Below, piece after piece: positions 656 to 62,749 of a stretch of DNA of 64,000 nucleotides (within the stretch, counting starts at the first letter, position 1; every line of letters begins with the position of its first letter). The notes below the pieces were generated by a model that saw only the letters and a list, made by a program, of their open reading frames with translations, had not been told where the DNA came from and made no database searches. Origin of the DNA: an uncultured delta proteobacterium (GTDB lineage: Bacteria; Desulfobacterota; Binatia; Binatales; Binataceae); the NCBI GenBank assembly GCA_963744545.1, contig CAVUUH010000036.1:141880-205879 (forward strand), given 5' to 3'. Position numbers and translations under genes: made by a program.

Positions 656-832
656 TTACACCTCTCCCCTCGGGAGAGGTCGCGCATCAGGCGCGGGTGA
701 GGGCGCACGCATCCAGCTTGATTTGAGCGCCCTCACCCGCCCAACGATAAAAATATCGTCGGGCGACCTCTCCCGGTTTGCGCCTGTTCAACAAAGTCGC
801 CATCCGCGGGAGAAGTAATTCCAGCCGCGACG
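656..832. repeat. REP/MITE-like element copy 1 (~175 bp) with nested inverted repeats (cctctccc-N4-gggagagg; gggtgagggcgc...gcgccctcaccc; cgacgata...tatcgtcg; ggcgacctctcccgg...ccgcgggagaagt)
   Basis: About 88% identical to 1236..1396 in the same orientation. Internal palindromic modules are visible directly in the sequence. Confidence 0.7.
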
Positions 833-27144: not shown

Positions 27145-28407
27145 TTGCGAGTGAGAATGGGCCAGCCGCGACGCACGACGCCATCAATTTCGGCCTCATC
27201 GCCACGCGAGCACGCTCTCTTGACCCTCGGGCAGCACTACCCGGCTTCTGCTAGAATCGCGCGCGTGCAATCGCTCGACGACTACATCCCGCGCCCAGGC
27301 CTCTCCGTTCCCATCGTTACGATTCTCGACGCTCGCGGCCGCGTCCTCGAAGACCAGCAGCGCGCCGTCGTTCGCTTCGCGCTGCAGGACGGCGCCGGCG
27401 CCGACATCATCTTCGCCGCAGGCACCACCGGCGAATGGGATCGTATCGACAACTCACGCCGCCAGGCCGTCGCGCGAATCGCGATCGAGGAATGCCGCCG
27501 CGTGCGCGAGTCCGTCGCCAAGAAGATCGAAGCATGGGCCGGCATCACCGCGCACACCCGCGCCGACACGCTCGACAACCTCACTCATGCGCTCCACGCT
27601 GGCGCCGACGCAGTGGTGGTCGCGCCGCTGTCGATCAAGGACGTCGAGAATCCAGCCGAATTCGTTGAGCGCGACATCGGCGCCGTATTCAATCGCGCGG
27701 GCCGGATGCTCCCGCTGTTTCTCTACGACAACGCCGACATCGCCGCTCCCGGCAAGGCGCCGCATCTGCATACGCGCGACGTCAAGGCGATGGCGCGGCT
27801 GCCGTACGTGCGCGGAATAAAAGTCACCGCGAGCAAGACCGTCATTGGCAACTACACGCGCGCCGCGTCGCATTTCAAAGCGGGTCACGAGTTCGCGATC
27901 TATGCCGGCAACGCGTACCTCATCTTCGATTTGTTCGCCCCGCCTGAAGGCGTCGGCGATCGCATGCGCCATTACTGGAATCGTTACCTGACTCAGCGCA
28001 CGCGCCCTTACGGCGTCGTCGCGGGGCCTGCCAATGCGATGCCGCGCGAATGGCAGCGCGGATGGCAGGTCTGCCGTTCAGGCGACATCGAGCTGATGCG
28101 CTTGTATGCTGACGCGATCGAGGAATTTCGCATCACCTGTACGTTCAAGCGCGGCGCCAAGTCCTATCGCCCGACGATTGCGACGATCAAGGCGTCGCTC
28201 AAGGAAATGGGCGTCATCGAGAGCGACGCAGTCGGCGCGGGCACGCCGCCGATGAGCGATACCGAGCGCCGCGAATTCTCGACGCGATTCGCCGCACTAC
28301 GCGATCGCAACGCCGAGATGCTTGAGCGCGGATGGGTCAGCGAATACGATTCGCCCGCCGGCCTCGCGCCGGCAACCGAACGAAAATCTGCGGGGCGCAA
28401 TGGCTGA
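27145..28407 (+). CDS. dihydrodipicolinate synthase/N-acetylneuraminate lyase family protein; the true start is probably internal
   Basis: …PIVTILDARGRVLEDQQRAVVRFALQDGAGADIIFAAGTTGEW… resembles the DapA/NAL family. Confidence 0.55.
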   Translation: MRVRMGQPRRTTPSISASSPREHALLTLGQHYPASARIARVQSLDDYIPRPGLSVPIVTILDARGRVLEDQQRAVVRFALQDGAGADIIFAAGTTGEWDRIDNSRRQAVARIAIEECRRVRESVAKKIEAWAGITAHTRADTLDNLTHALHAGADAVVVAPLSIKDVENPAEFVERDIGAVFNRAGRMLPLFLYDNADIAAPGKAPHLHTRDVKAMARLPYVRGIKVTASKTVIGNYTRAASHFKAGHEFAIYAGNAYLIFDLFAPPEGVGDRMRHYWNRYLTQRTRPYGVVAGPANAMPREWQRGWQVCRSGDIELMRLYADAIEEFRITCTFKRGAKSYRPTIATIKASLKEMGVIESDAVGAGTPPMSDTERREFSTRFAALRDRNAEMLERGWVSEYDSPAGLAPATERKSAGRNG

Positions 28408-30055
28408 AGAAAAACTCGACGTCGTCGGATGCGGCAGCATGGTCGTCGACCTGTTCTACCGCACGCCGCGGATCATCCGCGCCGACGAAAAGATTTTACT
28501 GCGCGCGCATACCGCGAGCGCCGCGATTGAACGCACCCAGGTCGGCGGCCTCGTCCTGAATCACGTCGGATGGGGCCGAATCCTCGGCCTTAAGACCGGC
28601 ATCTTCGGCAAGATGGGCGACGACCGCAACGGCGAGTTCTTGCGCGACGGGATGGACCGCCTCGGGATCCGACATCACCTGACCTTCGACGGCACCGCGA
28701 CCGCGTTCGCAACCATCTTCGTCGACGCCGCCGGCGATCGCGCTATCTACATGGCGCGCGGCGCGACCGGCGAGCTCACTCCCGCCGAGGTCCGCAATCG
28801 TCACGGCGCATTCATCCGCCGCGCCAATCTCGTCTCAACCGAAATTTCGCAGCTCCCGCTCCGCACCGTGATCGCGATCCTGCTTTTCGCGCGTACCCAT
28901 TCGATTCCGACGATTCTCGACGTCGACGTGCCACCCTCCGACGCCATCGGATCGCTCGGCACGCGCGCCGAACTCGAGCGCGCATTGAAACTCGCGACCT
29001 TCCTCAAGCCCTCGAAGGCTGCAGCGCGCGAGATCGCCGGCAACGGCCGCGATCCTCTGAAAATTGCCGACGCAATTCGCGCGAAGTACGGCAATCGCGC
29101 CGTCATCATCACTGAGGGCGACAAGGGATGCTCGATCGCGGCGCGCGACACTTCGGTTCGCGTGCCCGCGTTCAAGGTCAAGCAGGTCGACTCGACCGGG
29201 GCCGGCGACGCGTTCCTCGCCGGCATCTGCGCCGGCCTCCGCCTCGGCCTGCCATGGGAAAAGATCGGACGTCTCGCCAATGCCGCGGGCGCTGTCGCCG
29301 TCACGCGACTCGGTGCGTTCCCGTCAGGCTTCGAAGTGCGCGAGGAAATTCTCGACGTCTACGCGGAGCCGCTCGCGCTGCCGACTCCGCGCCTCGACGC
29401 CGAGCCGCGCGAGGCCGCGATCGGCGACTCGACCGGCGAGGTAGGGAAATTCTTCGACCTCGCACTCACCGAGCTCGCCGCGCTGCGCGGCGGCTTGAAC
29501 ATCGCGGCCATCTCGCGCACCGTCGAGATAATTCGCACCGCGCTCGGCCGCGGCGGCCGCGTGCACGTGACCGGAGTCGGCAAGCCCGAGCACGTCGCGC
29601 GCTACGCCGCCAGCGTGTTCTGCTCGGTCGGCACGCCCGCGACTTTTCTGCACGCGACCGAGACCCTGCACGGCAGCCTCGGCCAGGTGCATCCGCGCGA
29701 CATCGTAATCGCGATTTCCAACAGCGGCAGCACCGACGAATTGCTCTCGACCGCTACCGCCATCCGCGAGCAAGGCGCGCAGCTGATCGCAATCACCGGC
29801 AACAAAGACTCGAGCCTCGCGCAACTCGCCGACCTGGTGATCCACGTCCCCGTCCCCAACGAAGGCGGCGGGCTCGGCCTCGCCCCGCGCATCAGCGTGC
29901 TCGGCGAAGTCTTCGTGCTCGCGGGACTGTCCGTCGCGTTGGAACTAGCCCACGGCCTGACGGTCGAGGAATATTCCCGATGGCACAGAGCAGGCGCAAT
30001 CGGCGAAGCCGCCCGCCGCCTCGCCGAAACCCGGACCACCAGCCGCCGCGCGTAA
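28400..30055 (+). CDS. bifunctional PfkB-family sugar kinase / SIS (sugar isomerase, KpsF/GutQ-like) domain protein
   Basis: Ribokinase-like N-half (…DSTGAGDAF…) and SIS C-half (…GVGKPEHVARY…ISNSGSTDELL…). The start overlaps the stop of the upstream gene (ATGGCTGA). Confidence 0.65.
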   Translation: MAEEKLDVVGCGSMVVDLFYRTPRIIRADEKILLRAHTASAAIERTQVGGLVLNHVGWGRILGLKTGIFGKMGDDRNGEFLRDGMDRLGIRHHLTFDGTATAFATIFVDAAGDRAIYMARGATGELTPAEVRNRHGAFIRRANLVSTEISQLPLRTVIAILLFARTHSIPTILDVDVPPSDAIGSLGTRAELERALKLATFLKPSKAAAREIAGNGRDPLKIADAIRAKYGNRAVIITEGDKGCSIAARDTSVRVPAFKVKQVDSTGAGDAFLAGICAGLRLGLPWEKIGRLANAAGAVAVTRLGAFPSGFEVREEILDVYAEPLALPTPRLDAEPREAAIGDSTGEVGKFFDLALTELAALRGGLNIAAISRTVEIIRTALGRGGRVHVTGVGKPEHVARYAASVFCSVGTPATFLHATETLHGSLGQVHPRDIVIAISNSGSTDELLSTATAIREQGAQLIAITGNKDSSLAQLADLVIHVPVPNEGGGLGLAPRISVLGEVFVLAGLSVALELAHGLTVEEYSRWHRAGAIGEAARRLAETRTTSRRA

Positions 30056-30164
30056 CGCCTGCAGCGCACGGCGCTCGAAGAGAGCTAACACTTTGCGACT
30101 TCATCGTGGACCGCTTGAAATGTTAGCGTCGAGTTTTCAAGCCTGAGAAGGAAGTTACGCGAGC

Positions 30165-31148
30165 ATGAAAGTCCTGGTCACGGGAAGTTCCGGCCATCTC
30201 GGCGAGGCGCTCGTCCGTACTTTGAGGGACTTGCAGCACGAGGTTGTCGGCCTCGACATCCTCGAGTCGCCGTTCACGACTTGCATCGGCTCGATCAACG
30301 ATCGCGAATGCGTCAGGCGCTGCATGACCGGCGTGCAAGCAGTGTTTCACGCAGCCACGCTGCACAAGCCTCATGTCGCCACACACAGCACTCAGGACTT
30401 CGTCGACACCAATATCACCGGCACGCTCAATCTGCTCGAAGCGGCAGTGACGACAGGTGTCGAGTCGTTTGTCTTCACTAGCTCAACCAGCGTGCTTGGC
30501 GACGCGCTGGTGCCGCCGGCCGGCGCACCGGCCGCATGGGTGACCGAGGACATCACGCCAATTCCCAAGAACATCTACGGGGTCAGCAAGTCGGCGGCAG
30601 AGGATCTTTGCCAGTTGTTTCATCGAAACAAAGGTCTTGCATGCGTCGTGCTGAGAACGTCGCGATTTTTCCCGGAAGACGACGACAACAAGGCTGTGCA
30701 GGACGCTTACGCGGACGACAACATCAAGCTGAACGAATATCTCTACCGGCGAGTGGACCTGGAAGACGTCGTGAGCGCGCACTTGTTAGCCGCTAAGTGC
30801 GCACCGGCGATCGGTTTCCGCCGGTACATCATCAGTGCTACGACGCCCTTCTCTCCCGCCGATTTACCGGAATTGCGTGTTGATGCTGCGCAGGTGGTGC
30901 GGCGTTACTTTCCTGACTATGAGGCGGAATATACGCGGCGAGCCTGGAGAATGGTTCCAGGCATCGACCGCGTTTACGTCAACGATCGGGCTCGAAAGGA
31001 ACTCGGTTGGCAACCGCGATATAGTTTCAAGTTCATCATTGATCGTCTGCGGGCGGGCGAGGACATCAGGAGTCCACTGGCCCGGTTGGTTGGGTCAAAG
31101 GGATATCACACCGAGAAGTTTGCCGAAGGGCCCTATCCAGTGGAATGA
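30165..31148 (+). CDS. NAD-dependent epimerase/dehydratase (extended SDR) family protein
   Basis: MKVLVTGSSGHLGEAL… Rossmann N-terminus; YxxxK present (YGVSK). Confidence 0.75.
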   Translation: MKVLVTGSSGHLGEALVRTLRDLQHEVVGLDILESPFTTCIGSINDRECVRRCMTGVQAVFHAATLHKPHVATHSTQDFVDTNITGTLNLLEAAVTTGVESFVFTSSTSVLGDALVPPAGAPAAWVTEDITPIPKNIYGVSKSAAEDLCQLFHRNKGLACVVLRTSRFFPEDDDNKAVQDAYADDNIKLNEYLYRRVDLEDVVSAHLLAAKCAPAIGFRRYIISATTPFSPADLPELRVDAAQVVRRYFPDYEAEYTRRAWRMVPGIDRVYVNDRARKELGWQPRYSFKFIIDRLRAGEDIRSPLARLVGSKGYHTEKFAEGPYPVE

Positions 31149-31195
31149 AGGCCGGTTCATCCACGCTGGAACTTTCGCCTCGGCCTGCGTAGCCC

Positions 31196-31900
31196 CTACT
31201 TTCGCGACGCGGGTTTGAGTGCGACGGACGCTTCCGACGTCAACAGGAGGAAGGTCATCGATTCCTGGAGGTACAGGCCCACGTTTTTGTCGTCGTGGCG
31301 CAGATACCCAATCGAGACGTCCTGGCCGAGATGCAACTCGAAGTCGCCGCCGCGTGTCGTCAACACGAACGCTCCAGCGATCGCAGGCGCGAAGATGATC
31401 TCGTCGTTGACCAGCCGCTGGATGTGCTGGATAACGGGATAGCCGTGATCGCTGGCCTCGCTCAGCGCCGTGTACGCATCCGCGCCCATCACCACCGAAT
31501 ACGGCCCGTTGACGCCCGCGAGGCGCAGTTGGCTCAGCGCCTCGGCAACGGCGTCCGGATAATGAGCCGGGTCGCCGGGCAGCGCCGCGATTTTGTTGCT
31601 GGTCCCTTGCCGAATGCCTTCGATTCCGGCGGCGGCGTATCCTTCGAAGATCGCGCGGTCTTCGGCGAACGCTATCCGCTTCGCCGCATCTTTCAGCGGT
31701 TGCCAGTCCGAATCATTCGCGCCGCGATCGACGTCATCGATCGCCTGCCGATCCAGTTGGAATGGAGCGCGGATCGGATGTGTCAGGTTGCGGCGGCGGG
31801 CGGGGTCAGGCCGGGTTCGGCCGCCGTAGGGGGCCGTCCACCCCAACATGAACACCGGCCTGCGGAACCAATGGAATGGCCGGCGTTCAGGAATTCCGGG
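31196..31900 (-). pseudogene. family-1 encapsulin (Linocin M18) shell protein, 5'-truncated remnant lacking about 25 N-terminal residues
   Basis: The C-terminal ~220 aa align closely to M. tuberculosis Cfp29/encapsulin (…DDVDRGANDSDWQPLKDAAKRIAFAEDRAIFEGYAAAGIEGIR…GPYSVVMGADAYTALSEASDHGYPV…TTRGGDFELHLGQDVSIGYL…). Homology stops where the tcuA stop (31929) is reached. Confidence 0.75.
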
Positions 31901-44833: not shown

Positions 44834-44845
44834 GGGATCCTCCTC

Positions 44846-45277
44846 GCGGCATTCTAGCCGATAAGCCCGGCCGGATGGTACCCATGCCGGAAACCCCTCG
44901 CTTCGGGGCGGAGGAGCGAGCCATTGTCAGCGTCGTTCACGACTCGCCGTCGGCAAGGCCTCGGCCAGCCGCGTCGCTTGGTTGCGCAACCCGTAGGCCA
45001 GCCGGCCGGATCGCCGGAATACCCTTTCTCGAACGGCCGCCCGCGCGGCTTCCCCCGCTTTTGCTGATTCTGCAGCGAATTATCAGCTACCAAGCCCCTC
45101 TCTATTGCGCAAAAATGAACGACTGCGCACCCTTCGGCCTCAATGCCTACCTCCCGCATCAGCAGACGGTGCCGATGCGCGAACTGAACCTTCGATGCGG
45201 CGCCATTATGATAATATACAATTGTTATTAAATCAAGAGGGATCGAGGTCAATTGGTCATCCGCTTCGGTGCAGAGC
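44846..45277. repeat. ~430-bp repeat, copy A; it contains an anomalously AT-rich core (gattatgataatatacaattgttattaaatcaagaggga)
   Basis: About 85% identical to 51838..52268 in direct orientation. It lies between the cfa stop and the Mo-oxidoreductase start. Confidence 0.75.
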
Positions 45278-45382
45278 ACGCGTCACGGTTGGCGGCGGCG
45301 AAGCGCATTCAAATGGCGCTCGATTCAATCAAGCCGGACATCGCGCACAGCTGCGTCAACATCGCCACGATGTGTGCTAAGG

Positions 45383-46681
45383 CTATTTACCCTGCGCGTC
45401 AGCTCCGCAAGGTTCTTCCCGGTTGCCCAGGAAGCTGTTGTTTGCCGAGCTTGGTGGTGCGCTCGATACGCCCGCCCTCGCCTGTACTGGGATCATATCG
45501 CGCACGATCGGCACGGCGTCGTTTCTGGTCGACAAGAGCAGTTGGAAGACCATGTTCGAGCCATTCAGAAAGCCGACTTCGACCGCAGCGAGATAGTATT
45601 CCCACATGCGGCAGAAGCGCTCGTCGGCGAGAGCGGCGACCCGCTCACGGTTGGCGGCGAAGCGCATCCGCCAGTGTCGCAGCGTATGGTAGTAGTGCAA
45701 CCGCAGTACCTCCATATCCGCTACCCATAGCGCAGTACGCTCGGTTGCTGCGAACACCTCGGAGAGCGAGGGGACGTAGGCGCCGGGGAAGATGTATTTG
45801 CGGATGAATGGTCCTGTCGTGCCAGGAGGCAGCATGCGCCCGATGCAATGGACGAAGGCATAACCGTCGTCCTTGAGGAGCGTGCGGATGGTGCCGAAAT
45901 ATTCGTCGAAGTGCCCGATCCCGACATGCTCCATCATGCCGACCGAGACCACGCGATCGAAGCGTCCGGTCAATGCCCGGTAATCCATCTCACGGAATTC
46001 GACGCGGTCCCCCACGCCCGCCTGCTGGGCCCGTTCGCGGGCGACGCGGATCTGTTCTGGCGACACGTTCACCGCCGTGACCCGGGCGCCGGTCGTCGTA
46101 GCGATGTGGATGGCGAACGACCCCCAGCCAGATCCGATCTCAGCCACCGTCATCTCCGGCTGCAGACGCAGCTTCAGCGTTGCACGGCGCAGCTTGTTGG
46201 ATTGCGCCTGTTCCAGGGTGTCGTGCTCGGGGTCTTCGAAAAACGCGCAGGAATAGTTTAGGCCGTCATCGAGAAAGAGACGGTAGATGGCTGTCGAGAT
46301 GTCGTAGTGATGCCGCGCGTTGGCGGCGGCAACTCCTACCGGATTGGCCTGATGCCACCGCTTCGCCGCGCGCCACCAACGACGCAGCAATTTCTGCGTG
46401 CCGTACGCGGCCAGACCGCCACGGTTGAGCGAGAACAGATATATCAGATCGCCGATGCCCGATCCGTCCTCGAAGGTGAGCGTCCCGTTCATGTAGGCCT
46501 CGCCGGCGTGGAGCTCGGGGTTGAGGGCCATCTTGGTATGGAGCGCTCGATCATGAAGTCGAAGCGCCACGAAAGGCCCCGGGCTTTTGCCGTCAAAGAC
46601 GTGTACTCGACCGCCGGCATCGACCAGCCGCAGCGCGCCGACTCGGATGAACTTGGTCAGCAGACTCGAGAGCAGTCGCAT
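45383..46681 (-). CDS. cfa: cyclopropane-fatty-acyl-phospholipid synthase family SAM-dependent methyltransferase
   Basis: Intact 432-aa ORF with the CFA-synthase SAM motif (…VAEIGSGWGSFAIH…) and conserved C-terminal half. Confidence 0.8.
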   Translation of the reverse strand: MRLLSSLLTKFIRVGALRLVDAGGRVHVFDGKSPGPFVALRLHDRALHTKMALNPELHAGEAYMNGTLTFEDGSGIGDLIYLFSLNRGGLAAYGTQKLLRRWWRAAKRWHQANPVGVAAANARHHYDISTAIYRLFLDDGLNYSCAFFEDPEHDTLEQAQSNKLRRATLKLRLQPEMTVAEIGSGWGSFAIHIATTTGARVTAVNVSPEQIRVARERAQQAGVGDRVEFREMDYRALTGRFDRVVSVGMMEHVGIGHFDEYFGTIRTLLKDDGYAFVHCIGRMLPPGTTGPFIRKYIFPGAYVPSLSEVFAATERTALWVADMEVLRLHYYHTLRHWRMRFAANRERVAALADERFCRMWEYYLAAVEVGFLNGSNMVFQLLLSTRNDAVPIVRDMIPVQARAGVSSAPPSSANNSFLGNREEPCGADAQGK

Positions 46682-51412: not shown

Positions 51413-51837
51413 GCCGCACTCCCGCATCCCGTTGCCGGTCGTCTTGACGATATGGCCTCCATGCCTTGAACCTGTCGGGGGTATCATTTTGCGGCGTAGC
51501 GTTCTGAGCTGCACCCTCGCTTTGATCAATCGCATGGAGCTTGCGTCGGCCGTATCAGACCGGAGGCTGCTTATCGCCGCACAGCGACGACGGCAAGGGA
51601 CTGCGACAGGTTGAGCCCGCCGGGCTTGAAGTTGGGTGTTGGCGAGTGGCTCATAGGCGCAAAGTGTGACCCGCGCGGTGAGCCCTTCCGATGCGCCTCC
51701 AGCCCTTCTCCCGGCAGCGGAAGTTGCCCACCGTCTGGCCCCGCGAGCGCTTCTCCCCGCCCCTCGCGCGCCGACCGCCATGCGTCCTTTCCCTTTGACG
51801 ACTATGCCGACCTCCGCACGGAGGGTCTGCTCCTGGC

Positions 51838-52268
51838 GCGCATTCTAGCCGATAAGCCCGGCCGGATGGTACCCATGCGGGAAACCCCTCGCTTCGGGGC
51901 GGGAGAGACGAGCCATGCGGCAGCGTCATTCACGACTTGCCGTGAGCAAGGCCTCGGCCAGGCGCGTCGCCTGGTTGCGCAACCCAGGCCAGCCGGCCGG
52001 ATCGCCGGAACGCCCTTACTCGAACGGCCGCCCGCGCGGCTTCCCCCGCTTTTGTTCGTTCCTTGCAGCGAATTATCAGCTACCAAGAACTTTCTCCATT
52101 GCGCAAAAATGAACGACTGCGCACCCTTCGGCCTCGATACCCACCTCCCGCACCAGCGGACGGGGGTCTACTTGCAACCTGAACCTTCGATGCGGCGCGA
52201 TTATGATAATATACAATTGTTATTAAATCAAGAGGGAATTGAGGTCGAATTGGTCGTCCGCTTCGGTG
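51838..52268. repeat. ~430-bp repeat, copy B
   Basis: Direct repeat of 44846..45277 with the same AT-rich core (gattatgataatatacaattgttattaaatcaagaggga). Confidence 0.75.
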
Positions 52269-53302
52269 CAAGAGCAGGAACTGCCACTCGGATAGGGTGG
52301 CGGGCGGCGGAGCCCAGCTTAGCTAAAGATTTGGGCGCGGCCAGAAGATCGAATAGCGATAAGGTGACCAACCGCGCTTGTCCGGCGACCAGGTCAAGCC
52401 CAACCTCACCAACCAAGTCCGTTTTGGCGCGCTCGCATTCAGAAACGCACCAGGCCCGCAGTCCATCTGACACGCCGCGCGCCCGGCCGAGCAACCTTGG
52501 AAAGCTGGCCTTGACCCCCTGGCGAGGCTTGCCCCGACAAGCGCCCTTGCATGGCTGTACAAATCTCGTCATCACTTTGGATGCGGCGGATTATGTTCGG
52601 AAATCCGAGTAGGGATTGGCCTCCCAAAGATCGCCGACGAATTCGGTCGCACCCCGGGCAAGCGCATCCGTGAGCGTATCGGCAGACGACGAGATCGAAG
52701 CAACCTTGTAGTACAAGGGGATCGGGAGTTGGGGGCTTTGTCCCAGCTGCGATCTTAGCGCTTCGAACGTTGAGGTATTCGGCCATCCTTCACAGATGGC
52801 GGCAATCAACCCGGGCGACCTATTTCGGGCTAGTGCCTAGCCGCGCTAGCAGCTCCCGTCTCGGTTTGTTGGTCGCCAGCAAAGTTACGGCCGAGTATTT
52901 CGCCGGCAGTTAGCGCCGCGGTATACGATCCCCAGTTTGTCGGGCCATCGTATCCGAAGCTCTTGATACACATTTCGCGTAAATACCCCGTCCCAGGACG
53001 GGCGCGCTCTATTAGACGGAGTGCTTCGATGACGCCCCATTATGAAACTTCTCTTCGACGATGCGAAGTGCGAGTGCCCTGAACTCGGGCGCACCCTCGA
53101 CATAGCTCGGGAAAATATCAAATACGTCCGGCGGATTGATCTTGAGGGCGGCAAGCGCTTGATCGTCGCCGCCGAAGTGAGCCGCCAAGGCAGGCCATTC
53201 GCTGGCGACGAGCCGTAGCACCTCGTTGTGGTGTCGGAGCCATATGCGTCCGACGCCAGACGACGCGTCGGCGTGATCGAGAAATCGGCAACCGGTTGGT
53301 AA

Positions 53303-56300
53303 TTACCGAAACTGCGAACGCAGCTTGCCGGCGCGAAGTCGAGTTGGGGCCCGATCGCGTTGAGCTCGCAGACGAACCTCGTCAAGGTACTCCTCGCTGA
53401 TTTGGTCTGTCTGCCTGTTGATCCGGGCCAGAGCCATGGACGCCTCAACCGCGATCTGGCCGTCATCCTCAAACCGTGCAGTCGTGATTAACGAGCGGCA
53501 ACTAGGGTCTTGGACGCCACGGCGTGAAAGCTGGCGCAGGACGGAGGACCGCATCTCGACGTCAAGGGGAGCTACAACGGCGAGTACTTTGCGCCGCATA
53601 TCTCCGTTATTGGCAAAAACATCAGCCACGGTCCCCACCTGGCCCCAGCCGCGGCGCAACTGTCGCTCAGCCAGCGCAACCGCGCGAGGATCGCCGCTGA
53701 AGTGCCTTAAAAACCTGCCTGACCTCATTCTCCAGGACGAAACGCTCGCCATCGTAACCGCGGGAAAACACGCGATCCGCCGCCTCGATGTCCGAAGCAT
53801 CAATGCTCAGTTGCCCCAAGCCCTGAAGTGCAAAATCGGCACGAACTTCGTCTCCAGCATCAACTACTTCGAGCAGCAGCTCGCGGCACTGTCGTTTGTC
53901 GTCCATGACAAGTGGCAAGACGTGCGCAACGTCTCGCCGCCGCCTTACAGGAAGCGTCGAAGCTTTTGAAAGAGCGGCAAGCACTTCCGAGTTGTCGGCC
54001 CCCCAGATGTCGATGAGCGCGGAAGCGGCCCAGAAAGCCAAGCTTTGGGGATTGTCGAGGGATTTGAGAAGCAGAGACTTCAGCAAGGGCGTTGGCGCAA
54101 CGTGAGCAATGCCCGCAAAGCCATACGCGTCATCGCGATCTTGCTTCGATGCCCATGCTTCCATCGCCAGACAACGGTGGCATTTCCCTTGAAATGTTTT
54201 GCGAGGGCGGCCAATTCGCCCCGTTCATGGGCGCAGTGAGGATATTGCTGAGAGAAATCCTGAGCCACTAAGGCCGCTACCTCTGTATCGCCCGGGAAAC
54301 CATTGATAAGAAGCCAGTAATCGGGACGACTCCGGCGCGGTCTCAGTCCGTGAATATCGGGTCGCTGACCGGTAGCGTAGGCCTTTAACCGCGGGTCGCC
54401 AGACCAGCCGGAGAGAGGCGCTGCGTTACCGGGACCATTGAACTGATAATCATCTCGGTCGCCAATCTTGGTCAAATAGGCAAAATCATCATCTCCATGC
54501 ACTTTACGGTGAATAGCCACCGATGTCGCCGCCAACCCGATGAGGGGGTGTGCGGAGCGCCGACCATGATCGAGAATCTCATGCAGCTCGGGGAGATCGG
54601 GCCAACCCCGCCAAAGGGCCTCAATCCCAGCCGCGGCGGAGTTGAAGCTTGGAGGCGCCAATACTAAAGCGGATAAGCGCTTGCCGTATTCGGGTTGACC
54701 GCCGTATCGAGTAGCCAATGCTATACCGGCCGCGCGGCTGCCTTCGTAAAATTCGTCATGCAGGCCGCGCCATAGCACGGGCGCAATCCCTTCATCTTAA
54801 GGCTGCCTACCCGGCGATCGCCGCGAAGGCATCTACCAGGCTATAGCTGTGCCAGCGGGGAAACCATTCGGTGAGCTTCTCGCTTACACGCTGCGCCAGT
54901 ACAGTCGATGAAAAGTCCCTCTATCGCATAAGATACTAAGGCATAGCGAGTTGGTGGCAGCCACTTGCTGGTTTCTATCCGGTCGAACGTATCCTCGGCA
55001 AGTTGCTTAAGCTAGCCCCGGCGTCCGCTTGAACTCGCCGAAGGCGATTTCCGCGAGCATACGGTCGCGCATCATCACGACTTCCGGGCCACCATCCATC
55101 TCGTCAATGATCGCGATGAGGCGGTCAATCTCATTCGGCCGCTGCAACTGATACAAAAGGCACAGGACGACCTCGTGCCATCGCGGGTCAGCCGAGCGAG
55201 CCTTAACAAACTCGACTTGCGCATCAAACGAGAGACGGGCCAGATGCTGGGCTGCTAGATATTCCTGGAAGAATCCCGATGAAAAAATCCAATCTCACGC
55301 GGCGATTTCCGCACGAGAATCCCAATTTCTTCCTCGACCAGAGTAACGAGGGAGCGCGCCGTTTGTCGGGCTTCCTGTTCACTCAATCCAACCTGTTGCT
55401 TGAGAACTCTGGCTCACGACATGTGCAGCGCGATCGCTCTCAATGGCGTCTTGCGATGAGGACTCCTCACCGGCTTGTATTGCATTAGCCAGAGCTGCGA
55501 GAAGCCGTCTGCCGTGTGAAGTTGTCCAGTTCATGACGTGGCGACCCTGCCAAAGCCGCCCGATCGCGCGATACCGGGTGTGTCTCGAGTAGAAGCTTGG
55601 TCAGTTCGGCGTAGGCCAGAAAGCGGTTTCGTGGCAGCTGGAGGTTCGCGAGCCTCAGTGCGATAAGTCCCGTGAGCAGGAGTGGAGTGCCACCCAGTTG
55701 GGCAATCGCGCCATTACCCTGGAGTTCCGCAACGAAATCGGCCGCCTGCCGTCGGCTTTGACTGTCGGAGGCTTCACTAGGCGAGCCGTCCAGAATCTGA
55801 ACCATGCCGTCGCCAGATCAATTTGCTGCCTGACCGTCAGAGGAGCGATTTCGGACACCCGCCACGAGCCGTCGAGACCCCCCATTAGTCGATATCCGTG
55901 AGGCCGGCTGGATATAATGACGGGTATGGAACGGCGTGCGGCGAATGCCTGGAGGAGCGTAAGCGCAGTACCAGCCGCCGTCTCATTCTCCCATTCGTCG
56001 ATGCCATCTATGAGCAACAGGAGCCGCTTGTCGTCGAGCGCCTTACGCACCAATACAACCAGCTCGGGCTCGTCCTGTCTCTTGAACCACGCTTTAATAG
56101 CGTCGATAAAGAGAGCTAGGGGTTCCGGTCGCGATCAATTTCGTCCAAAAGGAAAACGACACCCAGACCGGAATGAAGTCCGGCCGGAGGCGGCGCAACC
56201 CGACAAGCTTCGGATCGGCTGACAACATGTCGAGCGCGAGGTATCGAAGGAGCGTGCTCTTCCCACTACCGGCAGGCCCCAACACAACCTCGCGGCTTGT

Positions 56301-57218
56301 GTCGCCGAGCCAGATTTCGAGGGATACTCGCTCGCGTTCCTGACGGAGCCGAGGCTCAGGTCTTGCCGTTCCGACCATTGGCGTCTCAGCGCCTGTTCTC
56401 GGATCGGTTGTGCGAGACGGTGCTTCAGCTTCCTGGCTTGGCGGGACCACATCTCGCGACAGCCAGAAATCGGGAGCCACGTAACGGTCGGCAAGCTGTA
56501 CCGAGATTTTACCGCCGCTCGAAGGCGGCAACCGGCTCAGAACCCCAGGATCGACGCTCGCAAAATGCGACGCGTACAAAGTCCGTGGGAGGTGGCCTTC
56601 AGTTTTTCAGATTTCGATGGGCCGCAGTCGTTCCGCAAGAATTTTGACCGCGTCCGGGCCGCAAAACCGCAGTGCCCATTCGCGTCCGAAAAAATCATCG
56701 ACGATCTCGGGCAGCTCTTTGAGGCGAAGCGAAAGTTCTTCGCCGTCGAGCGGCTCAAATTGAATGGCACGGCCATGAAGCCGGGCACGACATTGCTCTA
56801 TTTTCTCGTCGATATCGGTGGCGCGTAGACTCGCCTGAACGCAGAGCACAAAGCGGTCGCTTTTGGAAGCCCAACGGCCATACCAGAAATTCTGTTACCG
56901 CGGATTCGACCTGCGACGCGAGAATCTCTTGTGGCGCTTGCTTTGCCAGACGGCGTATTTCGGCGTGGATTTACGGCTGACATAGATGTCAATACCGCCC
57001 TGCGCCTGACCCTGGGTACCGTAGAGCCGACACCGCTCGATATCGCCGTCGGTGCGCGCCAGCCTGTGGCAGAGGCGTTCAAAGTTTTGCCAGCTGAGCT
57101 TGCCGAAAGGCAATTCCTGCTCACGCGTCTCAACCGGAGGCGCAATGTGGTCGTCATCGGGAACGTCGAATATCCATGTCGGATCGTCGGTATGGTCCAG
57201 AGCCTTGTCGTCGCTCAT
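53303..57218 (-). pseudogene. bacterial NLR-like STAND NTPase (NACHT domain) with an N-terminal Mrr-type PD-(D/E)xK nuclease domain and a C-terminal repeat region; it is disrupted by at least 8 frameshifts or stops
   Basis: Mrr-like segment …FERLCHRLART…YGTQGQAQGGIDIYVSRKSTPKYAVWQSKRHK. Walker A VVLGPAGSGKSTLLRYLALDM. Walker B LLLIDGIDEW. GTPLLLTGLIAL. Winged-helix signature FFHR(D)FFQEYLAAQHL. The fragments are spread over all three minus-strand frames, and the region has lower GC than its flanks. Confidence 0.7.
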
Positions 57219-57401
57219 GGATTGCGAGCCCTGATTGATCCGGTATATCTCGGATTATGGCCGAGGCGGGCCGACTTGCCCATCTCAAGGCTCACTCTGA
57301 GCGTCGGCTCTGGGGCGAATCCTGCGGTTTGCGACTGGCGCAGCGCGATCCGCCGATCACATGGTCGAGCCGCCTCGCTGGCGCCGCGCCGCGGCGCTTG
57401 C

Positions 57402-58372: not shown

Positions 58373-59683
58373 GTGACCATCGAGGCCGAAGAGGCGGCCC
58401 AACAGGGCCTGGTGAACACCGCCAAGCGCGTGCTGCCCGGCGGCACGTTCGGCAATTTCGCCGGCCGAGGTGGTGATCCGCGAAGGGCAAGGGCGGCCGC
58501 GTCTGGGACGAGGACGGCAAGGAATACGTCGATTTCCTGCTCGGCTCGGGGCCGATGCTGGTCGGCCATGCCCATCCCGAGGTGACCGAGGCGGCGCAGG
58601 CGCAGATCGCCCAGGGCACGACCTTCTTCGCCAACAACCGCTGCGGCATCGAGCTCGCCGAGGCGATCGTCGAGGCGGTGCCGTGCGCCGAGCAGGTGCG
58701 CTTCGTCTCGTCCGGGACCGAGGCCGATCTCTACGCGATGCGCGCCGCCCGCGCCTTCACCAGGCGCGACAAGATCCTGAAATTCGAGGGCGGCTATCAC
58801 GGCATGAGCGATTATTCGCTGATGAGCCTGGCGCCGAAGCGCTCGGGCAATTTCCCGCGCCGGTGCCGGATTCGGCCGGCATCCCGAAGAGCGTGCGCGA
58901 CGAGATGCTGATCGCGCCGTTCAACGATGTCGAGGCGGTCGCCGGCCTGGTGCGCGAGCACAGGGACGAGCTGGCCGGGGTCATCGTCGAGCCGTTCCAG
59001 CGCATCATCCCGCCGGCGCCCGGCTTTCTCGCGGCGCTGCGCAAGATCACCGCGGAAAACGGCATCCCGCTGATCTTCGACGAGGTGGTGACCGGCTTCC
59101 GCCTCGCCTATGGCGGCGCGCAGGAATATTACGGCGTCGTGCCCGACCTCTGCACCCTCGGCAAGGTGATCGGCGGCGGCTTCCCGCTGGCGGCGATCGC
59201 CGGGCGGGCCGAGATCATGGCGCATTTCGACCAAGCGCCAAGGTCGGCGACGAGGATTTCCTGATGCAGATCGGCACGCTGTCGGGCAACCCGGTCGCCG
59301 CCGCGGCCGGGCTCGCGACGCTCGACGATCCTGCGGCGCCCGGGCGCCTACGAGCAGATCCATCGCCACCGGCCGCGAGCTGATGGCGGCGCTTGGCGAG
59401 CTGCTGACGCGAGGCCGGCATCGCCGGCGCAGGTGATCGGCGAGCCGCCGCTGTTCGACGTCGTGTTCACGCGACCGAGCCGATGCGCGACTATCGCGGC
59501 ACGCTCGCGCGGCGACGCCGACTATGCGCACGCTTCAACGCGCTGTTGCGCGAGCGCGGCATCCTGAAGGGCGAGCAGAAATACTACGTCTCGCTCGCCC
59601 ACACGCCGGACGACATCCGCCACACGAGCGACGCCTGGGAATCGGCGATCGCGCAGCTGGCCGCGGCAAACGGCGGCCGTTGA
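58373..59683 (+). pseudogene. class-III (ornithine/GABA/GSA-type) PLP aminotransferase with about 5-6 frameshifts
   Basis: …RVLPGGTFGNFAG…; …LGSGPMLVGHAHPEVTEAAQAQIAQGTTFFANN…SSGTEADLYAMRAARAFT…; …IFDEVVTGFRLAYGGAQEYYGVVPDLCTLGKVIGGGFPLAAIAGRAEIM…; …TLSGNPVAAAAGLATL… lie in different frames. Confidence 0.65.
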
Positions 59684-61255: not shown

Positions 61256-61906
61256 TTACAGGCCCGGGTAGGGCTGGCCCCAATGGTCGCCATAGACGAC
61301 GTCCTTCAACGGCCCGCGGCCGAGCGGGCCGAAGCGGCCCATCGGCCAGCCGATCGGCAGGATCGCATAGGAATGGTACGCCGGGCGGCAGGCCGAAGAT
61401 CGCATCGACCTCCTTGCCGTAGCTGGATGTGCCGCGTCGTCAGCGTCGTGCCGAGGCCGAGGGCGCGCGTCGCCAGGCAGCATGTTCTGCACCGCCGGGT
61501 AGATCGAGGAGCCGGCTGAGCGTGCGGCCCGGAGATCGTCGCCGTCTTCGAGGCAGGCGACGATCCACACCGGCGCCTCGTGGTAATGGTCGGTCAGGTA
61601 CTCGACCGCGGCATGCTGGCGCTTGTAGCGCTCCGGGTCGGAGCCCGGCGGCGGCGGGCTCGATCGCGTAGCGCGGGCCGACGATCTCGTCGAAGGCGCG
61701 CTTGTAGTAGACCTGCACCTTCTTCTTGCGCTCCGGGTCCTTGACCACCAGGAAGCGCCAGCGCTGGGTGTTGCCGCCGCTGGCGGCGCCCATTGGCCGG
61801 CCTGCAGGATCTTGTGGATCAGCGCGTCGGGCACCGGGTCGGGCTTCAGCCGCCGCATCGCCCGCATCGTGCTCATGATCTCGAAGACGTCTGTACCTTC
61901 CGGCAT
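61256..61906 (-). pseudogene. nitroreductase-family protein with at least 3 frameshifts
   Basis: …MSTMRAMRRLKPDPVPDALIHKILQAGQWAP…; …GGNTQRWRFLVVKDPERKKKV…; …YAILPIGWPMGRFGPLGRGPLKDVVYGDHWGQPY… in different frames. Confidence 0.55.
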
Positions 61907-62021
61907 CCCGTTCCTCCTTCAGCTATAATTCGTCACCCCCGCGCCAAGCGGGGGTCCACGGCGACCATCGCGGCCTTGGCCCCGGATTCCCGCCTTCGCG
62001 GGGTGACAGAAAGCGTCTACC

Positions 62022-62372
62022 GCCGGGCCGGCGGCACCTCGATCCGGACCGCGACGGCGGCGCTGGCGATCACCGCGGTGTCGCCGGCCTCCTCGTCGGG
62101 GACATCGAGCCCGCCTTTCACTACCTTGACCGTCACGGTGCCGTGCGGCAATGCCGCCTTGACGCGCTCGGCGTCGACCCGCTCGGGGCGCTGCACGCCG
62201 ATCGTGACCTCGACCTGCATCGCCCGCGCCTCGATCCCGAGGGTGCGGATGAAGGTCAGCGAGCTGTGGTGGATCGCGTCCTCGACCGCGCGGATCGCCG
62301 CCTTTGTGTAGTCGCCGCCGTGCAGGTCGTTGCCGCTGCCCATCTCGAGGATCGCGCGCTTCGCCGCCATCG
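62022..62372 (-). CDS. Lin0512-family small conserved protein, paralog B (intact, 117 aa)
   Basis: MAAKRAILEMGSGNDLHGGDYTKAAIRAVEDAIHH…VTIGVQRPERVD…LPHGTVTVKVVKGGLDVPDEE…. Confidence 0.5.
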
Positions 62373-62381
62373 CCCTTCTCC

Positions 62382-62724
62382 TTACGGGATGTCGAGCCGC
62401 ACCACCGCGGCGGCGTTGGCGATGACCGTCGAGCCGGTGCCGGCGTCGTTGACGATCTCGAGCCGCCTTCGACGATTTCGACCGTGCCGGTGCCGTGCGG
62501 CAATACCGCCAGCACCGCCGCCTGGTCCACGCGGTCGGGGCGCGGCACCCCGATCCTGACCGCGACCTGCATCGCATCGACCGGCAAACCGACCGCATCG
62601 GCGATGCCGAGCCCGTTGTGCCACAAGGCGTCGCGCAAGGCGCGCACCGCCGCCTTGGTGTAGTCGGTCCCGCGGATGTCGGTGCCCATGCCGATCTGCA
62701 AGACCATCCGCTTCAACGCCATTT
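62382..62724 (-). pseudogene. Lin0512-family small conserved protein, paralog A (tandem), with a frameshift near 62470
   Basis: MALKRMVLQIGMGTDIRGTDYTKAAVRALRDALWH…LPHGTGTVEIVEGG, then another frame LEIVNDAGTGSTVIANAAAVVRLDIP*. Confidence 0.5.
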
Positions 62725-62749
62725 CGCGATTCCCCAAGACCTGCCGGGC

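What the first reader, a model, noticed from the sequence alone, without database searches (positions are those of the whole stretch)
52600..57300. Decayed bacterial NLR-like (NACHT) antiphage gene with an Mrr-type nuclease N-terminus in a lower-GC islet
Reading all three minus-strand frames reconstructs a ~1300-aa protein. It has an N-terminal Mrr-cat-like PD-(D/E)xK segment (…YGTQGQAQGGIDIYV…YAVWQSKRHK), then a canonical NACHT module: Walker A GPAGSGKST, Walker B LLLIDGIDEW, the GTPLLL motif and the winged-helix signature FxHxxFQEYLAA. A non-homologous C-terminal repeat region follows. Nuclease-NACHT/STAND architectures are the hallmark of Avs/bNACHT antiphage systems. Here the gene is broken into at least 8 pieces. 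The ~4.7-kb region has visibly lower GC (about 57-60%) than its 70% flanks, and it lies just outside copy B of the 430-bp repeat, which suggests a horizontally acquired defence islet that has been inactivated. A further decayed ORF fragment of unknown family sits at 52.9-53.2 kb.
Basis: partly seen in the sequence, partly recalled or inferred. Interest (0 to 1): 0.7.

Follow-up and report, generated by a model that had tools for sequence, protein, structure and literature searches.

The report
Shattered nuclease-NACHT immune-type gene, possibly mis-assembled
The region holds a large bacterial NLR-like gene (a nuclease domain fused to a NACHT ATPase) whose reading frame is broken about 22 times, but nearly every neighbouring gene over 23 kb is broken in the same way, so the damage is more likely poor consensus in a metagenome contig than decay of a defence gene.

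Summary
The minus strand from 57218 to 52323 carries one gene of about 1,625 codons, not about 1,300. The "unknown ORF" at 52.9-53.2 kb is its C-terminal part. After frame repair it passes the Pfam cut-offs for NACHT (37 bits) and Mrr_cat (23 bits). It keeps all catalytic and NTPase motifs. Intact relatives of about 1,620-1,650 aa lie next to an integrase or a relaxase. A modelled relative resembles NLRC4 and NLRP3. No PADLOC Avs or bNACHT model matches.

The frame is broken by about 22 small indels and one nonsense substitution. This damage is not specific to the gene. At least seven unrelated genes between 40.6 and 64 kb carry 1-6 small indels each, while relatives 98-99% identical at the DNA or protein level, several from short-read-type assemblies, have them intact. 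All the indels are 5 nt or shorter, insertions predominate, and most lie outside homopolymers. Substitutions on the window's own branch still look selected (omega about 0.28).

I judge consensus error in a long-read metagenome contig more likely (about 0.55) than true heavy decay (about 0.35). Only reads can settle this. Interest is low: it is a new member of a known kind.

The parts
52323..57218 (-). Whole coding region of the nuclease-NACHT gene (about 1,625 codons). In this record it is interrupted by about 22 frame-disrupting indels, one TAA nonsense codon and one insertion-generated TGA.
   Evidence: Frameshift-aware alignment to P0001/P0010. DNA alignments to L003/L002/L001 and to the 92% sister clade L006/L007/L018/L021. 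3' end and out-of-frame TAG.
56853..57101 (-). N-terminal Mrr-like PD-(D/E)xK nuclease domain. It carries E47 (FERLC 57083-57069), D77 (GGIDIYV 56999-56979) and Q92-x-K94 (WQSKRHK 56948-56928). It is cut by indels at 56920 and 56882.
   Evidence: Pfam Mrr_cat 23.0 bits against cut-off 21. These residues are invariant or nearly invariant in 35 relatives. Coordinates.
55796..56288 (-). NACHT NTPase core: Walker A GPAGSGKST (56279-56253), Walker B with the D[GAS]hDE signature LLLLIDGIDEW (56023-55991), and sensor-1 ISSRPHG (55915-55895).
   Evidence: Pfam NACHT 37.2 bits against cut-off 26.7. Signature definition from Kibby et al.. Coordinates.
55250..55287 (-). Winged-helix signature FFHR | FQEYLAA with the conserved histidine. 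It is split by a +2 insertion at about 55274.
   Evidence: H649 is invariant in the family alignment.
52323..55249 (-). C-terminal all-alpha (HEAT-like) repeat region of about 970 residues, the presumed sensor.
   Evidence: Colinear with P0010 and with the intact ORFs of L011-L014. Weak HEAT_2 hit in P0014 and precomputed PF13646 in relatives. All-helical in the AF2 model of P0001 beyond residue 650.
57219..57325 (-). Conserved 107-nt upstream region (promoter/5' leader). It marks the 5' edge of the unit shared with relatives; homology stops beyond it.
   Evidence: Alignment of upstream regions of the window, L006, L007, L018, L021 and L002. blastn end points at 57316.
52281..52303 (-). Remnant of the terminator-like hairpin downstream of the stop codon (CCGCCAC...GAGTGGCAG), homologous to the hairpin after the stop in L003. 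It marks the 3' edge of the unit.
   Evidence: Direct comparison of the 3' ends.
54797..54799 (-). TAA stop from a GAA->TAA substitution. This is the only lesion that is not an indel.
51832..52276 (.). Copy B of a 440-bp direct repeat (copy A at 44840-45282, 91% identical). It abuts the gene's 3' hairpin and is not part of the gene.
   Evidence: Copy A is also present in the short-read contig L009 and the JGI contig L010.

Best explanation
What it is. The locus is a self-contained, horizontally mobile single-gene unit of about 5.05 kb (57325-52281). It encodes a tripartite STAND protein of about 1,625 aa: an N-terminal Mrr-like PD-(D/E)xK DNase, a NACHT NTPase with a winged helix, and a C-terminal helical-repeat region of about 970 aa.

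How it would work (inferred, by analogy with characterised nuclease-NACHT proteins such as bNACHT25/32). The C-terminal repeats sense an infection cue. The NACHT module binds nucleotide and oligomerises. The nuclease then degrades DNA.

State in this record. The frame is broken about 22 times. The breakage is a regional property of the right-hand 23 kb of the window, not of this gene. I therefore think most of the lesions are consensus errors. The likely cause is a low-coverage or strain-mixed part of a long-read metagenome contig. The gene in the organism may be intact or may carry only a few true lesions.

Shown: the architecture, motifs, boundaries, mobility, lesion catalogue and regional pattern. 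Inferred: the antiphage role and the artefact origin.
For: Identity:
- Pfam NACHT and Mrr_cat score above their cut-offs.
- E47, D77, Q92xK94, Walker A and B, sensor-1 R and the WHD His are conserved in 35 relatives and present in the window.
- The AF2 model of the 66%-identical relative P0001 has pLDDT 81.6 and best matches NLRC4, NAIP, NLRP3 and NOD2.
- Intact ORFs of 1,623-1,648 codons exist in L011 and L012.

Mobility:
- Homology to relatives is limited to 57325-52281, with differing flanks.
- L002 carries the unit as a 58%-GC islet in 70-72% GC flanks.
- Intact relatives lie next to an integrase or a relaxase.

Regional breakage, measured against intact copies 98-99% identical (at DNA or protein level) in other assemblies, several of short-read type:
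- MoOR has 5 indels and the isochorismatase region about 6.
- MBOAT has 3 and the AlgX-like gene 2.
- The nitroreductase has 5, and its identity to a relative rises from 59% to 84% after repair.
- DUF3108 is split, and the aminotransferase is split.
- By contrast, 18.8-27.5 kb has 0 indels against GCA_049280435.1.

Nature of the lesions:
- About 45 indels were catalogued in the right-hand region. All are 5 nt or shorter, none is a larger deletion, and insertions outnumber deletions about 33:12.
- Only 1-2 of the 22 in this gene sit in runs of 5 nt or longer.
- Window-branch substitutions are N41:S52 (omega about 0.28), the same as the sister branch and far from neutral.
- The 92% sister copies, including a MEGAHIT contig, carry one lesion each over the same 2.9 kb where the window has 13.

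Source:
- Sibling assemblies carry Flye-style contig names under neighbouring ERZ accessions.
- That catalogue is Nanopore-only: Flye plus one round of Medaka.
Against: - No reads were available, so the artefact origin is inferred.
- The window's own contig (225,089 bp, held by NCBI and ENA) could not be tied directly to a sequencing platform.
- One lesion is a nonsense substitution. Seven of the roughly 45 indels are 2-5 nt, which is unusual for a polished consensus.
- CMAS with its flanks (2.5 kb) and the AKR gene lie inside the affected region but are clean, so any error process must be patchy.
- Omega on the window branch (0.28) is about twice that among intact family members (0.11-0.14). 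That is compatible with some neutral evolution.
- Every sampled copy in the >=79% clade, including the short-read one, carries at least one real-looking lesion. The prior that this copy is also truly dead is therefore not small.
- PADLOC finds no Avs or bNACHT model, so the defence role rests on architecture alone.
Confidence: 0.55

Rival explanations
1. Genuine, advanced pseudogene. The nuclease-NACHT gene, and most of the surrounding 23 kb, is truly decaying in this organism and accumulating small indels after loss of function.
For: - All eight to ten sampled copies of the >=79%-nt clade carry independent lesions. Among them, three assemblies share a -1 in an A-run at about 56805, and L016 has a roughly 178-nt deletion.
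- There is one GAA->TAA nonsense substitution.
- There are multi-nucleotide insertions such as AGGC and ATAG.
- Omega on the window branch is 0.28, against 0.11-0.14 among intact members.
- A mixture estimate allows about 30 of the 93 window-specific changes (analysed over 678 codons) to be neutral. Together with the indels this gives roughly 1 indel per 4 neutral substitutions, and MoOR gives a similar ratio.
- Indel number scales with divergence from the short-read relatives.
Against: - It would require at least 8 unrelated genes in two GC compartments to be dead at once, each hit several times, with no deletion longer than 5 nt and a net gain of bases. Deletional bias in bacterial pseudogenes is general knowledge and argues against this pattern.
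- The indels are not concentrated in homopolymers.
- N/S on the window branch equals that of the sister branch (Fisher p = 0.70).
- The sister copies have a single lesion each.
Confidence: 0.35
2. Chimeric or mixed-allele consensus. The right-hand 32 kb is joined to the Binatus-like left part by mis-assembly. The NACHT sequence is a blend of co-occurring alleles, and the indels arise where those alleles differ. This is a specific form of the artefact explanation. It also makes the host assignment wrong.
For: - Another assembly that matches at the Lhr locus (ENA contig_23759) is colinear only over 10574-31771.
- It diverges inside an encapsulin gene, exactly where GC jumps from 0.60 to 0.70.
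- Mismatches rise to 53 per kb, and 11 of the 14 indels cluster in the last 3 kb before that point.
- The best relatives of the MBOAT gene, the nitroreductase and the NACHT locus L002 are labelled Alphaproteobacteria. The Lhr gene is labelled Candidatus Binatus.
- Several alleles at 92-98% identity exist in other samples.
- Window-derived substitutions are mildly enriched within 10-30 nt of the window's indels (p about 0.02).
Against: - The junction could equally be a true island boundary.
- The adjacency of the 70%-GC MoOR gene and the 60%-GC CMAS gene is confirmed in the short-read contig L009 and the JGI contig L010.
- No second allele from the same sample was available for comparison.
Confidence: 0.25
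3. The gene is expressed despite the interruptions, through programmed frameshifting or as a functional set of split polypeptides.
For: Substitutions still look selected. In the sister clade the single frameshift separates the nuclease domain from an ORF of at least 808 aa carrying the NACHT and sensor regions.
Against: About 22 interruptions at unrelated sequences, with no shared slippery motif, cut through Walker-adjacent and winged-helix motifs. None is conserved in any relative apart from one positional coincidence with L002.
Confidence: 0.02

Closest known systems
bNACHT25 / bNACHT32 (clade 6 bacterial NACHT proteins of E. coli; Kibby et al., bioRxiv 10.1101/2022.07.19.500537; PMC12169576)
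   Same: Both are tripartite single-polypeptide proteins with an N-terminal Mrr-like PD-(D/E)xK DNase effector, a central NACHT module carrying the D[GAS]hDE Walker B signature, and a C-terminal helical region (for the known proteins; here).
   Different: - No sequence comparison with bNACHT25/32 could be made, so clade membership is untested.
- This family has a much longer helical C-terminus, about 970 aa. Relatives give weak HEAT-like hits; whether it corresponds to NCH1 was not tested.
- It comes from soil metagenome lineages.
- No PADLOC bNACHT model matches it.
- The copy in this window is not an open reading frame.
Animal NACHT NLRs (NLRC4, NAIP, NLRP3, NOD2)
   Same: The NTPase, helical and winged-helix core of the modelled relative P0001 gives its best Foldseek PDB matches to these proteins (E 3e-11 to 1e-7, probability 1.0).
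   Different: Sequence identity is only 11-16%. The effector is a nuclease rather than a CARD or PYD domain. The sensor is a helical repeat rather than an LRR. The global TM-score is only 0.2-0.3 because the domains are arranged differently.
Avs (antiviral STAND) families Avs1-5
   Same: The logic is the same: a STAND NTPase with an N-terminal effector (often a nuclease) and a C-terminal repeat sensor, on mobile islands.
   Different: No PADLOC Avs model matches. The only solved Avs among the matches with E <= 0.001 is EfAvs5, and it is far weaker (E 3e-4) than the NLR NACHT proteins. The Walker B signature is NACHT-type.

Membership tests
NACHT-module STAND NTPases (bacterial NACHT, sensu Kibby et al.) | Pfam NACHT (PF05729) at or above the gathering score | tested here: met
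   37.2 bits against a cut-off of 26.7 on the frame-repaired protein. Relatives P0014 score 34.0 and P0002 26.9.
NACHT-module STAND NTPases (bacterial NACHT, sensu Kibby et al.) | Walker A GxxxxGK[ST], and Walker B followed by the D[GAS]hDE signature | tested here: met
   GPAGSGKST at 56279-56253 and LLLLIDGIDEW (D-G-I-D-E) at 56023-55991. Signature as defined. G318, G320, K321, D406, D409 and E410 are invariant in 35 relatives.
NACHT-module STAND NTPases (bacterial NACHT, sensu Kibby et al.) | Winged-helix domain with a conserved histidine after the NTPase core | tested here: met
   FFHR/FQEYLAA at 55287-55250. H649 is invariant in the family. In the window the motif is split by a +2 indel.
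NACHT-module STAND NTPases (bacterial NACHT, sensu Kibby et al.) | NLR-type NACHT fold | tested here: met
   This was tested on the 66%-identical relative P0001, not on the window's protein. The AF2 model has pLDDT 81.6. The top Foldseek PDB hits are NLRC4 4kxf (E 3e-11), NAIP/NLRC4, NLRP3 and NOD2.
NACHT-module STAND NTPases (bacterial NACHT, sensu Kibby et al.) | Uninterrupted coding sequence (a functional member) | tested here: not met
   There are about 22 frame-disrupting indels and a TAA in the deposited sequence. Whether these exist in the organism is unresolved.
NACHT-module STAND NTPases (bacterial NACHT, sensu Kibby et al.) | Protection against phage that depends on NTP binding | not testable with these tools
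   This needs expression of an intact relative together with Walker A mutants.
Mrr-like PD-(D/E)xK nucleases (Pfam Mrr_cat PF04471) | Profile match at or above the gathering score | tested here: met
   The match is marginal: 23.0 bits against a cut-off of 21, over profile positions 3-80 of 115. Relative P0002 scores only 17.4. PF04471 is precomputed for the more distant relatives P0030, P0040, P0045, P0050 and P0056.
Mrr-like PD-(D/E)xK nucleases (Pfam Mrr_cat PF04471) | Catalytic E ... D ... (E/Q)xK residues on an alpha-beta-beta-beta-alpha-beta core | tested here: met
   E47, D77 and Q92 are nearly invariant in 35 relatives; K94 is the consensus residue (WQxKR) in that alignment. All four are present in the window (FERLC, GGIDIYV, WQSKRHK). 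The AF2 model shows H43-55, E58-65, E75-82, E88-94, H101-113 and E120-127. The domain was not fold-searched on its own.
Avs1-5 / PADLOC-defined NLR-like systems | Match to a PADLOC Avs or bNACHT protein model | tested here: not met
   Only P-loop-level hits to mad8 and PtuA (E 0.002-0.007) were found for the repaired protein, P0014 and P0002.
bNACHT clade 6 (bNACHT25/32) | Phylogenetic placement of the NACHT module in clade 6, and an NCH1 C-terminal domain | not tested
   The sequences WP_001702659.1 and WP_057688292 were not retrievable with the tools. Only the architecture could be compared.

The most novel reading that the evidence does not exclude
The nuclease-NACHT cassette spreads horizontally between very different soil lineages. 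Contigs carrying it are labelled Binatus-like and Alphaproteobacteria, and the copies are 79-92% identical at the DNA level. The cassette is then inactivated independently and repeatedly after arrival. Every sampled copy of this young clade carries its own private lesion, including the short-read assemblies, while the older 53%-identity clade is intact. This would be a natural record of strong counter-selection, for example autoimmune cost, against a newly acquired NLR-type nuclease. The window's copy would be the most decayed example.
Probability: 0.25. Interest if true: 0.4.

Novelty: new member of a known kind. Interest (0 to 1): 0.18.

Why it matters
If the lesions are real, this is one more dead defence gene. 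Its only wider interest is the hint that this particular nuclease-NACHT cassette is recurrently lost after horizontal transfer.

If they are artefacts, which I think more likely, the practical lesson is that pseudogene calls in long-read metagenome contigs must be judged against the state of neighbouring genes and of close relatives from short-read assemblies. Otherwise a patch of poor consensus can pass for an 'inactivated defence islet'.

The intact relatives in L011 and L012 are a previously uncatalogued Mrr-NACHT subfamily of about 1,630 aa that PADLOC does not detect. They could be tested for phage defence.

Tried and rejected
- Plasmid collection search with the locus: no match.
- Rfam scan of the whole window: no family. 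The 440-bp repeat is not a known RNA.
- tRNA scan: none, so there is no tRNA-linked integration site.
- PDB sequence search with the repaired protein: nothing.
- A codon-usage Viterbi frame map of the window was too noisy in the 70%-GC parts to count frameshifts. I abandoned it in favour of reference-guided alignments.
- I tried to retrieve the window's own contig record, and so its platform and sample, through exact protein look-ups. This failed.
- I considered methylation-motif (GANTC) associated basecalling errors, because several frameshift contexts resemble GAnT(T)C. I dropped the idea once the exact indel positions against the 92% sister clade showed no consistent motif.
- I looked for an 'empty site' upstream of the aminotransferase in L008. 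The flanks are simply unrelated, so this was uninformative.
- I looked for an independent assembly of the same allele. The 90% cluster of the N-terminal fragment holds only the window's fragment and six copies of the 92% clade.
- Programmed frameshifting was rejected: there are too many sites, they share no motif and they are not conserved.

Full report
**1. What is there**

ORF listing and three-frame translation of the minus strand show many short ORFs that belong together. I built a reference from two relatives, P0001 for the N-terminus and P0010 for the rest. I aligned it to the DNA with a frameshift-aware dynamic programme.

- The result is a single reading from ATG 57218 to about 52327. 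It has 1,622 residues and is 78% identical to the reference.
- The native stop is the out-of-frame TAG at 52325-52323. A decayed copy of the terminator-like hairpin seen after the stop in L003 follows at 52303-52281.
- The gene is therefore about 1,625 codons, not about 1,300.
- The 'unknown ORF fragment' at 52.9-53.2 kb is part of its C-terminal region.

**2. What the gene is**

- On the repaired protein, Pfam gives NACHT at 37.2 bits (cut-off 26.7) and Mrr_cat at 23.0 bits (cut-off 21).
- In an alignment of 35 relatives, the nuclease residues E47, D77 and Q92 are nearly invariant and K94 is the consensus residue.
- The NTPase residues are invariant in the same alignment: Walker A G318/G320/K321, Walker B D406/D409/E410, sensor-1 R440 and the winged-helix H649.
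- All of these residues are present in the window's translation.
- The Walker B motif LLLLIDGIDEW carries the D[GAS]hDE signature. That signature separates NACHT from other STAND NTPases (Kibby et al.).
- An AlphaFold2 model of the 66%-identical relative P0001 has pLDDT 81.6. It shows an alpha/beta nuclease-type N-domain, a disordered linker, the NTPase with its helical and winged-helix parts, and then only helices.
- Its best Foldseek PDB matches are NLRC4, NAIP/NLRC4, NLRP3/5/7/9 and NOD2 (E 3e-11 to 1e-7). EfAvs5 matches only at 3e-4.
- PADLOC models for Avs and bNACHT systems match neither the repaired protein nor its relatives.
- No solved structure is related at the sequence level.
- Intact full-length family members exist in JGI metagenomes. 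L011 has a 1,648-codon stop-to-stop ORF and L012 has 1,623. L013 and L014 are cut by contig ends. All end with the conserved ...QSLFDLLS(S/G)RDx.
- L014 has a P4-type tyrosine integrase next door, and L013 a MobA/VirD2 relaxase-helicase.
- L001 has IS3 transposases and a HEPN_RiboL-PSP gene nearby.

**3. Boundaries, mobility and GC**

- Homology to all close relatives begins about 107 nt upstream of the ATG (about 57325) and ends just after the 3' hairpin. Beyond these points the flanks are unrelated.
- L002 is a 2.2-Mb contig labelled Alphaproteobacteria. There the same unit is a 5-kb tract of 57-58% GC inside 70-72% GC DNA.
- The family keeps 57-61% GC wherever it sits.
- In the window, the cassette (0.587) meets 0.70 GC only on its right. 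On its left, 45.3-51.8 kb is 0.615. The first 32 kb, which holds aconitase and Lhr, is also 0.615.

**4. The lesions**

DNA alignments were made against L003, L002 and L001. For the 5' 2.9 kb they were also made against a 92%-identical sister clade. That clade comprises L006, L007, L018 and L021. L006 is a MEGAHIT k141 contig and the others are JGI contigs. Window-specific changes are:

- thirteen +1 insertions
- three +2 insertions
- two +4 insertions (AGGC, ATAG)
- four -1 deletions
- one in-frame -3 deletion
- a further shift in the last five codons
- one GAA->TAA substitution

None of the 13 lesions in the 5' 2.9 kb is shared with any relative, apart from one positional coincidence with L002.

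**5. Is the breakage real?**

Five observations argue that it is not specific to this gene and may not be biological.

(i) Neighbouring genes are hit in the same way.
- MoOR (42.8-44.8 kb) has 5 single-base indels. The adjacent isochorismatase region has about 6. This is against L009 and L010, which agree with each other and carry intact genes.
- MBOAT has 3 frameshifts and only 7 amino-acid differences from the intact P0251. P0251 lies on a JGI contig whose neighbouring CMAS protein is 100% identical to the window's.
- The AlgX-like gene has 2 frameshifts against P0129.
- The nitroreductase has 5 insertions. Its identity to P0264 rises from 59% to 84% once they are removed.
- DUF3108 and the aminotransferase are also split.
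- In contrast, 3-40.6 kb is tiled by long ORFs. The stretch 18.8-27.5 kb has no indel against GCA_049280435.1.

(ii) The roughly 45 indels catalogued in the right-hand region are all 5 nt or shorter. Insertions outnumber deletions about 33:12. In this gene only 1-2 of the 22 lie in runs of 5 nt or longer, although ten such runs exist. Real bacterial pseudogene decay is expected, from general knowledge, to be deletion-biased, to include larger deletions and to be repeat-associated. L016 does have a deletion of about 178 nt.

(iii) Substitutions private to the window branch are N41:S52, giving omega of about 0.28. The sister branch gives N19:S20, and the two do not differ (Fisher p = 0.70). Neutrality would give N/S of about 2.9. 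At most about a third of the window-branch substitutions can be neutral.

(iv) Over the same 2.9 kb the sister copies have one lesion each, where the window has thirteen.

(v) Sibling assemblies of these organisms carry Flye-style names under neighbouring ERZ accessions. The matching published catalogue is Nanopore-only. It was assembled with metaFlye and polished with a single round of Medaka, and its authors note Nanopore-associated errors at low coverage (PMC12313526).

Several points argue the other way.
- One lesion is a nonsense substitution, and some indels are 2-5 nt.
- CMAS with its flanks and the AKR gene are clean inside the affected zone.
- Omega on the window branch is twice the 0.11-0.14 seen among intact members.
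- Every sampled copy of the >=79% clade has at least one lesion. Three assemblies share a -1 in an A-run. True inactivation of this cassette is therefore common.
- I could not obtain reads or the record of the window's own contig.

**6. A further caution on the contig**

- ENA contig_23759 is another assembly that is virtually identical to the window at the Lhr locus. It is colinear with the window only from 10574 to 31771.
- Homology ends inside an encapsulin gene, exactly where GC jumps from 0.60 to 0.70.
- Mismatches rise to 53 per kb, and 11 of the 14 indels cluster in the last 3 kb before that point.
- The left part is labelled Candidatus Binatus through its Lhr-like protein. The closest relatives of several right-hand genes are labelled Alphaproteobacteria.
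- The junction is either an island boundary or a chimeric join. The host of the NACHT gene is therefore not secure.

**7. Mechanism (inferred)**

The comparison is with bNACHT25/32, which have an N-terminal PD-(D/E)xK DNase, a NACHT module and a C-terminal helical domain. In those proteins defence requires the nuclease residue D48, and activation degrades DNA (PMC12169576; Kibby et al.).

By that analogy, an intact member of this family would sense a phage-associated cue through its long helical C-terminus. It would switch the NACHT module to an oligomeric NTP-bound state and unleash the Mrr-like nuclease. None of this was tested here. Membership of clade 6 was not tested either.

**8. Verdict**

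- The domain interpretation is supported.
- The 'Avs/bNACHT system' label rests on architecture only.
- The 'inactivated defence islet' story is not secure. I put about 0.55 on mostly-artefactual breakage (a chimeric or mixed-allele consensus would be one form of this), about 0.35 on genuine heavy decay, and the remainder on rarer explanations.
- This is an ordinary member of a known kind of gene in a questionable stretch of a metagenome contig.

Noticed in passing
window 40600-64000: Almost every gene here carries small indels relative to intact copies in close relatives. MoOR (42.8-44.8 kb) has 5, the isochorismatase region (41.8-42.6 kb) about 6, MBOAT (47.7-49.3 kb) 3, the AlgX-like gene (49.3-50.4 kb) 2, DUF3108 (57.4-58.0 kb) at least 1, the aminotransferase (58.4-59.3 kb) at least 1, and the nitroreductase (61256-61906) 5. 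CMAS (45383-46681) and the AKR gene (50.5-51.4 kb) are clean.
   Followed up: yes
window 31771 (and 28000-31771): Colinearity with ENA contig_23759, an assembly virtually identical to the window at the Lhr locus, ends at 31771 inside an encapsulin (Linocin_M18) gene. This is exactly where GC jumps from 0.60 to 0.70. Mismatches and indels pile up in the last 3 kb before that point. It is either a chimeric join or an island boundary. The left part is labelled Candidatus Binatus, while relatives of the right-hand genes are labelled Alphaproteobacteria.
   Followed up: partly
window 44840-45282 and 51832-52276: A 440-bp direct repeat, 91% identical, contains an AT-rich core (TTATGATAATATACAATTGTTATTAAATCAAGAGGG). 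Each copy lies upstream of a minus-strand gene (MoOR, AKR) and downstream of another (CMAS, NACHT). Copy A is also present in the short-read contig L009 and the JGI contig L010. There is no Rfam match. Its function is unknown.
   Followed up: partly
L006, L007, L018, L021, L016, L003, L002, L001 (relatives of window 52323-57218): Every sampled copy of the 79-92% nt clade of this NACHT gene has its own frame-breaking lesion. L006, L007 and L018 share a -1 in an A-run (window equivalent about 56805). L021 has a -2. L016 has a deletion of about 178 nt. L003 and L001 have one frameshift each. L002 has two, plus a compensated pair. The 53%-identity clade (L011, L012) is intact.
   Followed up: partly
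L002 10001-14871 (contig CAVZBG010000010.1): The same gene, at 79% nt identity, forms a sharp 5-kb tract of 57-58% GC inside 70-72% GC DNA of a 2.2-Mb contig labelled Alphaproteobacteria. This is a clean single-gene islet with no adjacent mobility gene within 8 kb; a DDE transposase lies at 23.5 kb.
   Followed up: partly
window 58850-58920; P0257, P0258: The class-III aminotransferase shifts frame within about 30 nt after the peptide ...KRS(G/A)NFP in three independent assemblies, each at a slightly different point. This suggests a hypervariable or error-prone GC-rich spot.
   Followed up: no
window 61919-62737 and 62017-62598 (D1 repeat 62111-62223 / 62463-62575): A 113-nt direct repeat, 77% identical and spaced 352 nt apart, lies within overlapping ORFs. 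It suggests a tandemly duplicated small gene or domain. It was not examined.
   Followed up: no
window 692-782 and 1268-1358: A 91-nt direct repeat, 90% identical, contains an internal inverted repeat (CGCGGGTGAGGGCGC...GCGCCCTCACCCGCC). It looks like a REP- or MITE-like intergenic element. It was not examined.
   Followed up: no
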